A stretch of 1,453 bases of DNA, taken from the NCBI RefSeq assembly GCF_003334255.1, contig NZ_QOWU01000158.1. One strand, given 5' to 3'. A model generated the notes under the pieces. The model made no database searches, was not told the DNA's origin, and was given only the letters and a program-made list of their open reading frames with translations. This DNA comes from Escherichia coli (GTDB lineage Bacteria; Pseudomonadota; Gammaproteobacteria; Enterobacterales; Enterobacteriaceae). Below, one piece after another: positions 1 through 258 of the stretch. The position numbers and the translations under genes were made by a program. The number at the start of each line of letters is the position of its first letter. Position 1 is the stretch's first letter.

Positions 1-9
1 AAAAACTCT

Positions 10-19
10 TATGACCTTT
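10..19. repeat. Candidate subterminal inverted repeat, right-end copy (TATGACCTTT)
   Basis: Plus strand 10..19 TATGACCTTT is the exact reverse complement of 1438..1447 AAAGGTCATA. The two copies flank the transposase gene at 9 bp and 6 bp from the window edges. The match does not extend in either direction. Confidence 0.4.
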
Positions 20-35
20 GTCAAATATTGAGCCC

Positions 36-67
36 AAAAAGACCTTACGCAGCTCCGGGAGCTTCGT
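36..67 (-). terminator. Possible intrinsic terminator or RNA 3'-end hairpin (imperfect GC-rich hairpin followed by a U5 tract)
   Basis: Minus strand 67..47 ACGAAGCTCCCGGAGCTGCGT folds as an 8-bp stem (one A-G mismatch) with loop CCCGG, followed after 6 nt (AAGGTC) by TTTTT at 40..36. The gap between stem and U-tract is longer than in canonical terminators. Confidence 0.2.
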
Positions 68-86
68 TATATCGCGGATTAAAGAA

Positions 87-102
87 CCTGAAACAGTCAG
101 AC
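87..102. repeat. Arm of 16-bp imperfect inverted repeat (pairs with 241..256)
   Basis: Reverse complement of 87..102 (GTCTGACTGTTTCAGG) matches 241..256 (GTCTGACTGCTTCAGG) at 15 of 16 positions. Confidence 0.7.
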
Positions 103-240
103 TGTATCTTGGATTTTACAAACTCTTATTCGGGGATTTTAGCCCCATGACGATTTACGCAGTGAGCTGGCCTCTTTCTATATGCAGGTATTGGCGCATT
201 CTGACCTCCTGAATTCTTTTACGAGGATCACTCATTCCGT

Positions 241-256
241 GTCTGACTGCTTCAGG
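241..256. repeat. Arm of 16-bp imperfect inverted repeat (pairs with 87..102)
   Basis: See partner arm. The single mismatch is G-U compatible only in the minus-strand transcript. Confidence 0.7.
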
Positions 257-258
257 GT

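What the first reader, a model, noticed from the sequence alone, without database searches (positions are those of the whole stretch)
1..258. Unannotated guide-RNA candidate (bridge-RNA / seekRNA class) in the 3' end of an IS110-family element
The transposase is a DEDD-type IS110-family enzyme. Members of this family (IS621 bridge RNA; IS1111/IS110 seekRNA) are known to use an element-encoded structured ncRNA that base-pairs with both donor ends and target DNA; in IS1111-type elements it lies downstream of the transposase. Here the downstream non-coding region is 258 bp, far more than a terminator needs. It contains a 16-bp closing stem whose one non-Watson-Crick position is a G-U only in the transposase-sense transcript, internal GC-clamped hairpins, and a 10-nt copy of the element's terminal sequence. 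Together these suggest a guide RNA that would dictate the insertion site and could be reprogrammable.
Basis: partly seen in the sequence, partly recalled or inferred. Interest (0 to 1): 0.8.

Follow-up and report, generated by a model that had tools for sequence, protein, structure and literature searches.

The report
ISEc45 bridge (seek) RNA gene

Summary
The window is ISEc45, an IS1111-type member of the IS110 family. It sits inside an IS66-family transposase gene. The element spans window 8-1451 and is flanked by a CT core on both sides.

- the 16-bp stem at 87-102/241-256, with one G-U pair;
- the inner hairpins;
- the 10-nt copy of the element end, at 120-129 and 3-12;
- the long non-coding region after the transposase gene.

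Comparison with 8 close and about 60 distant relatives shows a conserved RNA in transposase sense at about window 87-256. It has a closing stem and two arms, each an internal loop capped by a hairpin, and the stems show many compensatory changes. The four loop strands covary with the DNA next to each element. One loop matches both strands of the target, and the other matches both ends of the element. This is the published bridge-RNA/seekRNA logic in the IS1111 order.

Durrant et al. 2024 already list ISEc45 as having a bridge RNA detected in its right end, and they drew the RNA of a 41%-identical relative, ISCARN28. Expression, processing and function were not testable here.

Verdict: interpretation supported, already known, low interest.

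The parts
259..1392 (-). ISEc45 transposase gene (377 aa; DEDD/RuvC-like N-terminal domain plus Transposase_20 C-terminal domain)
   Evidence: ORF. NCBIfam NF033542 at 278 bits. Pfam PF01548 residues 10-158 and PF02371 residues 227-298. RefSeq annotates it as 'IS110-like element ISEc45 family transposase'.
87..256 (-). Predicted bridge RNA / long seekRNA unit (about 170 nt) enclosed by closing stem P1. The true 5' and 3' ends are unknown.
   Evidence: MFE fold, RNAalifold consensus, pair counts, CM hits in 72 of 80 sources searched.
241..256 (-). P1, 5' strand of the closing stem (CCUGAAGCAGUCAGAC)
   Evidence: Inverted repeat I2. 11 of 16 P1 pairs show compensatory changes. An equivalent stem is found in 71 of 71 relatives: -44.5 versus -22.4 kcal/mol for shuffled partners.
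87..102 (-). P1, 3' strand of the closing stem (GUCUGACUGUUUCAGG)
   Evidence: Same as for the 5' strand.
163..234 (-). Target-binding arm: P2 (230-234/163-167), P3 (223-226/171-174), internal loop, and P4 hairpin (185-211). About 72 nt, a size comparable with the 82-96-nt 'peak' seekRNAs of ISEc11, ISKpn4 and ISPa11.
   Evidence: Coordinates. P2 and P3 are 100% paired, and P4 has 5 covarying pairs. All four helices covary in the 72-sequence set. SeekRNA sizes come from PMC11187229.
212..222 (-). Target loop, 5' strand (GUAAAAGAAUU). It is complementary to the core plus right flank on the strand in transposase orientation (5'-AGTTTTT-3'): 7 pairs including 2 wobbles.
   Evidence: Variants CAAAAAUU and CAAGAAUU in relatives match their flanks AGTTTTTG and AGTTCTTG. 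Cognate mean run 5.18 versus non-cognate 2.90; 0 of 2000 permutations reach the observed sum.
175..184 (-). Target loop, 3' strand (CAUAUAGAAA). It has the same sense as the left flank plus core (CATAAAG), so it pairs with the opposite strand: 6 of 7 positions.
   Evidence: CAUAUAG, CAGGCAG and CAGCCAG track the left flanks CATAAAG, CAGGAAG and GAGCCAG. Cognate 4.95 versus 3.16; 0 of 2000 permutations.
117..161 (-). Donor-binding arm: P5 (158-161/117-120), internal loop, and P6 hairpin (131-147, invariant GGGG/CCCC).
148..157 (-). Donor loop, 5' strand (UAAAUCGUCA). It is complementary to the G of the core plus the first 5 nt of the left end (GATGGT): 6 pairs including 2 wobbles.
   Evidence: ACCAUC pairs with left end ATGGT and AUCAUC with ATGAT in relatives. 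Cognate 4.10 versus 3.65; 1 of 2000 permutations. This is the weakest of the four guides.
121..130 (-). Donor loop, 3' strand (AAUAAGAGUU). It has the same sense as the right end plus core (ATAAG+AG).
   Evidence: Repeat at 3-12/120-129. It covaries with the 3-nt right-end extension in relatives: AAG, CAG, GAG, ATC, CGG. Cognate 6.64 versus 4.60; 0 of 2000 permutations.
26..86 (-). Spacer between the bridge RNA and the right end. It contains a hairpin at 49-65 that varies in sequence among relatives. Role unknown.
   Evidence: No terminator-like site was scored in this region.
19..24 (-). TTGACA, the putative -35 box of a promoter that is completed only when the ends are joined in the excised circle.
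   Evidence: Fixed position next to the right inverted repeat, 17-bp spacer to TATGAC in the left end. At least 9 of 12 hexamer matches in 37 of 51 relatives. No promoter-like site in the linear window. The precedent is ISEc11 (PMC11187229).
8..19 (.). Right end of the element: subterminal inverted repeat (10-19) plus 3-nt extension (8-10; AAG in transposase orientation).
   Evidence: Inverted repeat I5. Empty versus occupied site. The same layout occurs in 51 relatives.
1..7 (.). Not part of the element: 5 nt of IS66-family tnpC target DNA (1-5) plus the CT core (6-7).
   Evidence: Empty sites L004 and L003 versus occupied L001. Junction survey.
1438..1453 (.). Left end: subterminal inverted repeat (1438-1447), 5-nt extension (overlapping, 1447-1451) and the second copy of the CT core (1452-1453). 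TATGAC at 1447->1442 is the putative -10 box.

Best explanation
Window 8-1451 is ISEc45, an IS1111-type insertion sequence of the IS110 family.

**The RNA.** Its 251-nt non-coding right end encodes a bridge RNA (long seekRNA) of about 170 nt, read in the same direction as the transposase gene. A 16-bp closing stem encloses two arms, and each arm is an internal loop capped by a hairpin.

**Guides, in transposase orientation.**
- The first loop reads the target. Its 5' strand pairs with AG+TTTTT on one DNA strand. Its 3' strand pairs with the complement of CATAA+AG on the other.
- The second loop reads the element's own joined ends in the same way. Its 5' strand pairs with G+ATGGT of the left end. 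Its 3' strand pairs with the complement of ATAAG+AG of the right end.

**Inferred mechanism.** The DEDD transposase bound to this RNA would bring the circularised element and the target together and exchange strands at the shared AG/CT dinucleotide. This places the element at one position in IS66-family tnpC genes without a target duplication. The linear element has no promoter-like site. Transposase and RNA are therefore probably transcribed together from a promoter formed when the ends join (TTGACA in the right end, 17 bp, TATGAC in the left end), and the RNA is then cut out of the 3' untranslated region.

**Shown versus inferred.** Shown here: element boundaries, the conserved structure, its strand, and covariation of all four loop strands with target and ends. 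Inferred from published relatives: transcription, processing, binding to the transposase and the recombination chemistry.
For: - **Identity and ends.** Transposase family. An empty site (AAAAACTTTATG) compared with the occupied site gives a CT core at both junctions. Subterminal repeats lie 7 nt (including the core) from the left end and 3 nt from the right end, which is the IS1111 rule in PMC11187229.
- **Structure, close relatives.** MFE fold z = -2.24. With 9 sequences at 70-86% protein identity, 41 pairs are 93.5% paired against 28-49% for slid partners. 18 pairs carry compensatory changes against 0-3 slid, and 0 of 500 shuffles reach that.
- **Structure, distant relatives.** A covariance model of the inner 125 positions finds full-length, same-strand hits 23-142 nt after the stop codon in 72 of 80 sources searched, down to 46% protein identity and across several phyla. 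On these, 91.5% of cells pair against 33-53%.
- **Closing stem.** It recurs in 71 of 71 relatives with unrelated sequence: -44.5 versus -22.4 kcal/mol.
- **Strand.** G-U pairs and the one-sided CM hits fix the strand.
- **Guides.** In 39 non-redundant elements each loop strand matches its own element's DNA better than other elements' DNA. Permutations reaching the observed sum: 0, 0, 1 and 0 of 2000. Three target classes within the ISEc45 clade each carry matching guide changes.
- **Target specificity.** All inspected copies, and relatives at 70-86% identity from Salmonella, Vibrio and metagenomes, lie at the same tnpC position.
- **Promoter.** None in the linear element. A conserved junction promoter is present.
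- **Literature.** SeekRNA in the downstream non-coding region of IS1111 elements, with the top-strand match 5' of the bottom-strand match. ISEc45 is listed with a bridge RNA detected in its right end. ISCARN28, whose bridge RNA was drawn, is 41% identical.
Against: - No transcript, processing or binding data exist for ISEc45. The only papers naming it are resistance-genome surveys.
- Rfam 15 gives no hit, although it apparently has no bridge-RNA family.
- ISEc45's own guides are imperfect. The target loop's 3' strand has one mismatch next to the core, and the two 5' strands need two wobble pairs each.
- The donor 5' strand gives only a small cognate excess, 4.10 versus 3.65.
- The 72-sequence alignment was fitted to the model, so its pair counts lean towards the structure. 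Related elements are not independent, so the permutation counts are not true probabilities.
- For ISEc11 an 82-nt RNA without the second arm sufficed for transposition. The donor arm may therefore be dispensable.
Confidence: 0.88

Rival explanations
1. Only the first arm (window 163-234, about 72 nt) is the working guide, a short seekRNA that finds the target. The closing stem and the second arm would be processing or stability elements, and the ends would be recognised by the protein through the inverted repeats.
For: In ISEc11 the predominant RNA is 82 nt, and that form alone gave 42% transposition against about 15% for the 154-nt form (PMC11187229). The donor 5' strand shows a weak cognate excess of 4.10 versus 3.65. 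The element ends are nearly invariant within the ISEc45 clade, so covariation there has little power.
Against: The donor loop's 3' strand tracks the 3-nt right-end extension across five classes: AAG, CAG, GAG, ATC and CGG. Its cognate excess is 6.64 versus 4.60, with 0 of 2000 permutations. The 5' strand switches ACCAU/AUCAU with the left end ATGGT/ATGAT. P5, P6 and P1 are conserved in 70 or more relatives. Durrant et al. report donor-binding nucleotides in IS1111 bridge RNAs.
Confidence: 0.08
2. The region is an ordinary 3' untranslated region: a stabilising or terminating structure plus protein-binding end sequences, with no guide function. The matches to flanking DNA would be leftovers of the insertion history.
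For: No expression data exist. The fold z-score of the single sequence is modest at -2.24. The 10-nt repeat alone could be a coincidence of an A/T-rich end.
Against: No terminator-like site is scored in 1-258. Four separate loop strands covary with target and ends across 39 elements with many different targets. The loops are held in fixed positions by stems that covary. A leftover of insertion cannot explain matches to both strands of a target that lies outside the element.
Confidence: 0.02
3. The region encodes a small protein, for example the 64-aa ORF at 18-212 on the plus strand or the 52-aa ORF at 155-313 on the minus strand.
For: ORFs of 35-84 aa occur on the antisense strand of the region in all nine relatives examined.
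Against: Their frames, starts, ends and lengths differ between relatives, and 1-3-nt indels in the loops break colinearity. What similarity exists follows nucleotide conservation in two different frames. Substitutions instead preserve base pairs.
Confidence: 0.01
4. Part of 1-258 is flanking host (IS66) DNA rather than part of the element.
For: One record matches only window 1-82 next to an IS66 remnant (H60), and another matches only 1-317 (H57).
Against: Empty sites join exactly at window 7|8 and 1451|1452. About 1,700 records carry the empty site matching only through window 13, and 495 carry the full junction. Relatives in other IS66 copies keep the whole region and end at the same inverted repeat. 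The partial matches lie in regions annotated with fragmentary, pseudogenised transposase genes and were read as truncated remnants without inspecting their sequence.
Confidence: 0.01

Closest known systems
IS1111-family seekRNAs (ISEc11, ISPa11, ISKpn4, ISPst6; Siddiquee et al. 2024, PMC11187229)
   Same: - Subterminal inverted repeats with 7-nt left and 3-nt right extensions.
- Long non-coding region downstream of the transposase gene, and no promoter in the linear element.
- A promoter completed at the circle junction.
- An RNA whose loop matches both strands of the target, with the top-strand match 5' of the bottom-strand match and the two matches overlapping at the insertion point.
- Insertion without target duplication.
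- Natural re-targeting through changes in the loop (compare ISEc11 and ISXne4).
   Different: - In the paper's own identity matrix, ISEc45 is only about 15-25% identical to the other listed transposases. I did not check which columns hold the tested elements.
- The transposase is longer: 377 aa against 330-350 aa.
- The target is a coding motif in IS66-family tnpC rather than REP, attC or GTGAAAATACTG.
- Nothing has been tested experimentally for ISEc45.
IS621 bridge RNA (IS110 group; Durrant et al. 2024, PMC11208160; Hiraizumi et al. 2024, PMC11208158)
   Same: - Two internal loops, target loop first and donor loop second.
- Each loop has one strand pairing with the left side on one DNA strand and one pairing with the right side on the other, with the core dinucleotide included.
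- If the DNA is oriented by its CT core (the window's plus strand), the guide order is the same as in IS621: left then right guide in both loops (my derivation).
   Different: - The RNA lies after the transposase gene in the right end, not before it in the left end.
- Relative to the transposase gene the guide order and the core (AG) are reversed.
- Both arms are enclosed by a long closing stem, giving a three-way junction.
- In the ISEc45 clade the target guide meets the core through U-A and U-G rather than two Watson-Crick pairs.
ISCARN28 predicted bridge RNA (Durrant et al. [quoted passage not shown]
   Same: Same transposase subgroup, 41% identity over 357 aligned positions. IS1111 group, with the bridge RNA detected in the right end. 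The same table lists ISEc45 in the same way.
   Different: The figure is not held in the library, so I could not compare the drawn structure or guides with mine. The element, host and target are different.
ISPpu9 / Ssr9 small RNA of Pseudomonas putida (PMC12288879)
   Same: An IS110-family element inserted at specific repeats, with a small-RNA gene downstream of the transposase gene (abstract seen).
   Different: I read only the abstract, and no sequence or structure comparison was made. Its target is REP sequences, not IS66.

Membership tests
IS1111 group of the IS110 family (the element) | DEDD (RuvC-like) N-terminal domain plus Transposase_20 C-terminal domain in a single transposase | tested here: met
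   PF01548 residues 10-158 and PF02371 residues 227-298. NF033542 at 278 bits against a cut-off of 140.
IS1111 group of the IS110 family (the element) | Subterminal inverted repeats, 7 nt from the left end and 3 nt from the right end | tested here: met
   TATGACCTTT/AAAGGTCATA at 10-19 and 1438-1447. In transposase orientation the layout is AGATGGT-ATGACC...GGTCAT-AAG. The rule is stated in PMC11187229.
IS1111 group of the IS110 family (the element) | The longer non-coding region lies downstream of the transposase gene | tested here: met
   251 nt downstream against 59 nt upstream.
IS1111 group of the IS110 family (the element) | Site- and orientation-specific insertion with no target duplication beyond a shared core | tested here: met
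   Empty versus occupied site. All inspected copies, and relatives, lie at one position of IS66-family tnpC.
IS1111 group of the IS110 family (the element) | A promoter assembled at the circle junction, and a circular intermediate | tested here: inconclusive
   Sequence only: TTGACA-17-TATGAC across the joined ends, conserved in position in relatives, with no promoter in the linear form. The -10 hexamer is weak (4 of 6, with C at position 6). Circles were not observed.
Bridge RNA / seekRNA | A structured non-coding RNA in the long non-coding end, in transposase sense, conserved through covariation | tested here: met
Bridge RNA / seekRNA | A target-binding internal loop whose two strands pair with opposite strands of the target on either side of, and including, the core | tested here: met
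   Loop strands 212-222 and 175-184. Covariation with flanks in 39 elements, with 0 of 2000 permutations for each strand. Three guide/target classes occur within the ISEc45 clade.
Bridge RNA / seekRNA | A donor-binding loop complementary to the joined element ends | tested here: met
   Loop strands 148-157 and 121-130. The 3' strand gives a strong signal and the 5' strand a weak one.
Bridge RNA / seekRNA | IS1111 order: the top-strand match lies 5' of the bottom-strand match | tested here: met
   compared with PMC11187229.
Bridge RNA / seekRNA | The RNA is made, binds the transposase, and is required for circle formation and insertion; changing it re-targets the element | not testable with these tools
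   No expression or genetic data for ISEc45 were found.
Bridge RNA / seekRNA | Match to a curated or published covariance model | tested here: inconclusive
   Rfam 15 gives no family hit. The models of Durrant et al. were not available to me, but their Supplementary Table 5 records a detection in the right end of ISEc45.

The most novel reading that the evidence does not exclude
The long closing stem may be a double-strand-specific processing signal (for example for RNase III). It is 16 bp here, appears longer in the distant relatives shown, and has no counterpart described for IS621. It would release the guide RNA from the 3' end of the transposase mRNA. Because the only promoter is formed in the excised circle, guide supply would then be licensed only after excision. 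A related reading concerns orientation. When the DNA is oriented by its CT core, this RNA has exactly the IS621 guide order. The 'reversed' IS1111 order would then simply reflect a transposase-RNA unit that faces the other way relative to the recombination site.
Probability: 0.3. Interest if true: 0.35.

Novelty: already known. Interest (0 to 1): 0.2.

Why it matters
It matters little as a discovery. RNA-guided IS110/IS1111 recombinases were described in 2024, NCBI already names this protein family 'RNA-guided transposase', and ISEc45 is listed in a published table as having a bridge RNA in its right end.

The practical value lies in annotation. ISEc45 occurs in about a quarter of complete E. 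coli genomes (1467 of 5426), and its roughly 170-nt RNA gene is not annotated in RefSeq.

The work here adds three things:
- exact element ends;
- a base-level map of the four guide strands;
- a natural series of re-targeted relatives that all attack one conserved motif of IS66-family transposase genes.

This series could serve as a ready-made test set for mismatch and wobble tolerance in IS1111-type bridge recombinases.

Tried and rejected
- **Rfam 15 at E up to 10.** It gave only SNORD65 and Xist_exon1 noise. I read this as the absence of a bridge-RNA family in Rfam, not as evidence against an RNA.
- **Divergent E. coli matches.** I first took the 91%-identical matches covering only window 516-1453 (H38, H42) for elements with a different RNA module. 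They are truncated pseudogene remnants.
- **Window 1-82 as IS66 DNA.** A match to window 1-82 alone (H60) suggested this. Empty-site comparison put the boundary at window 7|8.
- **The 71% relative L092/L093.** It has unrelated DNA directly after the stop codon, with an IS3-like gene called further downstream, and so was no use for the RNA.
- **Alignment trimmed to the whole closing stem (A3).** MAFFT misplaced a gap in the 3' strand. I modelled only the inner 125 positions (A4, R1) and tested the closing stem separately with duplex energies.
- **Longest-exact-repeat search for element ends.** It picked spurious repeats in GC-rich relatives. It was replaced by a search anchored on the ATG that starts the left repeat.
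- **Two registers for the target loop's 5' strand.** ISEc45's strand can pair in two registers: UAAAAG with TTTTTA, or AAGAAUU with AGTTTTT. I kept the second because it is the register of the relatives, but the first is not excluded.
- **Small-ORF reading.** Rejected.
- **Terminator in the non-coding region.** None scored.
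Full report
**What the window is.**
The 1453-nt window holds one long ORF on the minus strand, 259-1392, 377 aa. It matches NCBIfam NF033542 'IS110 family RNA-guided transposase' at 278 bits against a cut-off of 140. It also carries Pfam PF01548 (DEDD_Tnp_IS110) and PF02371 (Transposase_20). Megablast against complete E. coli genomes finds the sequence in 1467 of 5426 genomes, annotated 'IS110-like element ISEc45 family transposase'. 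In every copy I listed it lies inside an IS66-family transposase gene.

**Element boundaries.**
I compared an occupied chromosomal site (L001) with the same locus lacking the element in Nissle 1917 (L004). The empty site reads GGAAATAAAAACTTTATGTTC. The occupied site reads AAAAA-CT-[CTTATGACC...GGTCATACCAT]-CT-TTATGTTC.
- The element is therefore window 8-1451, with the CT dinucleotide at both junctions (6-7 and 1452-1453).
- Window 1-5 is target DNA.
- A 10-bp subterminal inverted repeat lies at 10-19 and 1438-1447.
- In transposase orientation the layout is AG-ATGGT-ATGACCTTT ... AAAGGTCAT-AAG-AG. The repeat thus sits 7 nt (core included) from the left end and 3 nt from the right end. This is the rule Siddiquee et al. 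give for the IS1111 family (PMC11187229).
- The upstream non-coding part is 59 nt and the downstream part is 251 nt, again the IS1111 arrangement.

A junction probe found 495 records with the full IS66/ISEc45 junction. Many more match only as far as window 13, which is the empty site. Further copies lie in ISEc23, ISEc43 and ISEc22 tnpC genes.

**Checking the observation.**
- The 16-nt inverted repeat 87-102/241-256 is real, 94% complementary.
- It closes the minimum-free-energy fold of the minus strand (-71.7 kcal/mol; shuffles -60.4 +/- 5.1; z = -2.24).
- Its one non-Watson-Crick pair is G-U in transposase sense and would be C-A on the other strand.
- The 10-mer AAACTCTTAT occurs at 3-12 and 120-129, with 0.07 matches expected by chance.
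- GC-clamped inner hairpins are present.

The one correction is that window 1-7 is not part of the element.

**Relatives.**
A protein search gave homologues from 86% identity downwards. I recovered DNA for elements at 86% (Salmonella, L087), 79% (metagenome, L090/L091), 74-75% (L094, L095) and 70-71% (L096, Vibrio L007, L098). A further 80 genome loci at 46-71% identity came from a genome-collection scan. The close relatives whose contigs include flanking DNA with called genes also sit in IS66-family tnpC. In every close relative with flanking sequence, the junction has the same sequence layout.

**Structure.**
The nine close non-coding regions align colinearly (A2). RNAalifold predicts the following (ISEc45 coordinates):
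- a closing stem P1;
- a first arm with P2, P3, an internal loop and the P4 hairpin;
- a second arm with a 4-bp P5, an internal loop and the P6 hairpin.

Counting pairs gives 41 pairs with 93.5% of cells paired, against 28-49% when partners are slid by 1-3 columns. 18 pairs have changes on both sides, against 0-3 in slid controls and 9.3 +/- 1.9 in shuffles (0 of 500). P1 alone has 11 covarying pairs.

I built a covariance model of the inner 125 positions (R1). It found full-length hits in 72 of 80 sources searched. All were on the transposase strand, 23-142 nt after the stop codon. They include alpha-, gamma- and delta-proteobacteria, a planctomycete, acidobacterial MAGs and a Neobacillus. 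On that alignment 91.5% of cells pair against 33-53% slid, and 18 of 24 pairs covary. The caveat is that the alignment was fitted to the model.

The closing stem lies outside the model but recurs in all 71 testable relatives with unrelated sequences. The duplex energy of the flanks is -44.5 kcal/mol, against -22.4 for shuffled partners.

**Guides.**
For 51 elements I located both ends through the inverted repeat. All share the layout flank|AG|5 nt|ATG-repeat ... repeat-CAT|3 nt|AG|flank. I then read the four loop strands from the model alignment.

*Within the ISEc45 clade:*

| Loop strand | RNA variants | Matching DNA |
|---|---|---|
| Target loop, 5' strand | AAGAAUU, CAAAAAUU, CAAGAAUU | complement of core + right flank AGTTTTT, AGTTTTTG, AGTTCTTG |
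| Target loop, 3' strand | CAUAUAG, CAGGCAG or CAGGUAG, CAGCCAG | same sense as left flank + core CATAAAG, CAGGAAG, GAGCCAG |
| Donor loop, 5' strand | ACCAUC, AUCAUC | complement of left end GATGGT, GATGAT |

*Across the wider family,* the donor loop's 3' strand follows the 3-nt right-end extension:
- AAG pairs with AAUAAGAG;
- CAG with CAUCAGAG;
- GAG with AUGAGAG;
- ATC with AAUAUCAG;
- CGG with CAUCGGAG.

*Statistics.* I measured the longest complementary run between each loop strand and DNA in 39 non-redundant elements, comparing each element's own DNA with that of the others.

| Loop strand | Own DNA | Other elements' DNA | Permutations reaching observed sum (of 2000) |
|---|---|---|---|
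| Target loop, 5' strand | 5.18 | 2.90 | 0 |
| Target loop, 3' strand | 4.95 | 3.16 | 0 |
| Donor loop, 5' strand | 4.10 | 3.65 | 1 |
| Donor loop, 3' strand | 6.64 | 4.60 | 0 |

Related elements are not independent, so these counts are indicative rather than probabilities.

*ISEc45 itself*:
- 212-222 pairs with AGTTTTT: 7 pairs, 2 of them wobble.
- 175-184 matches CATAAAG at 6 of 7 positions.
- 148-157 pairs with GATGGT: 6 pairs, 2 of them wobble.
- 121-130 matches ATAAGAG at 7 of 7 positions.

It is extended by three U that happen to continue into the T-rich flank. In relatives that extension does not follow the flank, so only about 8 nt are meaningful.

**Relation to published rules.**
[quoted passage not shown] The 3' side pairs with the top strand on the right, and the CT core is included in all four pairings (PMC11208160). 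In transposase orientation ISEc45 shows the reverse order, which is what Siddiquee et al. report for IS1111 elements. If the DNA is instead oriented by the CT core (the window's plus strand), the order is the same as in IS621. This is my derivation, not a published statement that I have verified.

**Expression.**
No sigma-70-like site was scored anywhere in the linear window, against 2.0 expected. No terminator was scored in the non-coding region. Joining the ends places TTGACA (window 24->19) 17 bp from TATGAC (1447->1442). The TTGACA box holds the same position next to the right repeat in most relatives, with at least 9 of 12 hexamer matches in 37 of 51. ISEc11 is known to form such a junction promoter. 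That the RNA is co-transcribed with the transposase and then processed is an inference.

**What is already known.**
Durrant et al. (Supplementary Table 5) list 'ISEc45 / Detected Bridge RNA End: RE / IS1111'. They drew the predicted bridge RNA of ISCARN28, whose transposase is 41% identical to this one. Siddiquee et al. include ISEc45 only in their protein set. Other papers naming ISEc45 are resistance-genome surveys. The existence and location of this RNA are therefore already on record. The base-level structure, the guide assignment and the IS66 target were not found in the texts I could search.

**Rivals.**
- *Plain 3' UTR or terminator:* this does not explain four loop strands that track external DNA.
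- *Small protein:* antisense ORFs exist in the relatives but differ in frame and extent.
- *Flanking DNA:* this applies only to window 1-7.
- *Short seekRNA alone suffices:* this is the only serious variant. It holds that the first arm alone is enough, as the 82-nt RNA is for ISEc11, and that the second arm is accessory. The covariation of the donor loop argues against a purely structural role but cannot settle it.

**Verdict.**
The feature is an ordinary, already catalogued member of the IS1111-type bridge/seek RNA class. Interest is low (0.2), and confidence in the explanation is 0.88. What remains unshown is expression, the RNA's ends, binding to the transposase, and function.

Noticed in passing
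L003 around 380-420 (same chromosomal locus as window 1-13 joined to the DNA after 1453): A second kind of 'empty' site, AAAAACTCTTATGTTC, has one base more than the clean empty site in Nissle (AAAAACTTTATGTTC). It equals the left flank joined to the right-end/flank junction through the repeated TTATG (CATAA) pentamer. It may therefore be a scar of imprecise loss of ISEc45 rather than a virgin target.
   Followed up: partly
window 1-7 and 1452-1453 with flanks in L001 3788-4006 and 5465-5572; also L087, L090, L098, L007: ISEc45 and its relatives down to 70% protein identity (Salmonella, Vibrio, metagenomes) all insert at one point in IS66-family tnpC, within the codons of a G-x-K-N-x-L/F-F motif. 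Where gene calls are available, the insertion is antisense to tnpC. This is an insertion sequence that specifically disrupts another family's transposase gene, much as ISEc21 does with IS3-family genes.
   Followed up: partly
window 49-65 (within spacer 26-86), minus strand: A hairpin lies between the bridge RNA and the -35 box. Relatives appear to have a hairpin at about the same place with different sequences, judged by eye from the A2 alignment. In two of them (L096, L007) a U-run follows, but not in ISEc45. Its role is unknown; it could be a 3' end, a terminator or a protective structure.
   Followed up: partly
window 196-210 versus 1389-1403: The P4 hairpin of the target arm contains AGGAGGUCAGAAUGC, a 13-of-15 copy of the transposase ribosome-binding site and start codon (AGGAGGUCAUUAUGC). 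It is absent from the relatives' P4 loops, so it may be chance. A role in titrating ribosomes or regulating the transposase was not examined.
   Followed up: partly
window 175-184 and 212-222; L087, L094: In two of the three target classes of the ISEc45 clade, the guide mismatches the target at the base just 5' of the AG core (U or C opposite a flank A). The clade also meets the core with UU (U-A plus U-G), whereas distant relatives use CU. This suggests tolerated positions, or incomplete adaptation to divergent IS66 copies.
   Followed up: partly
L092 2604-3033 and L093 1188-1617: A 71%-identical relative has an intact left end and transposase gene. Directly after its stop codon comes unrelated DNA, followed by an IS3-like (rve) gene, so its bridge-RNA region has been lost or displaced.
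   Followed up: no
L085 and L077: Two Microvirga copies carry identical target-loop sequences but different right flanks (TCCTCACT and AATTATCC). This suggests off-target insertions, or weaker constraint on the right side of the target.
   Followed up: no
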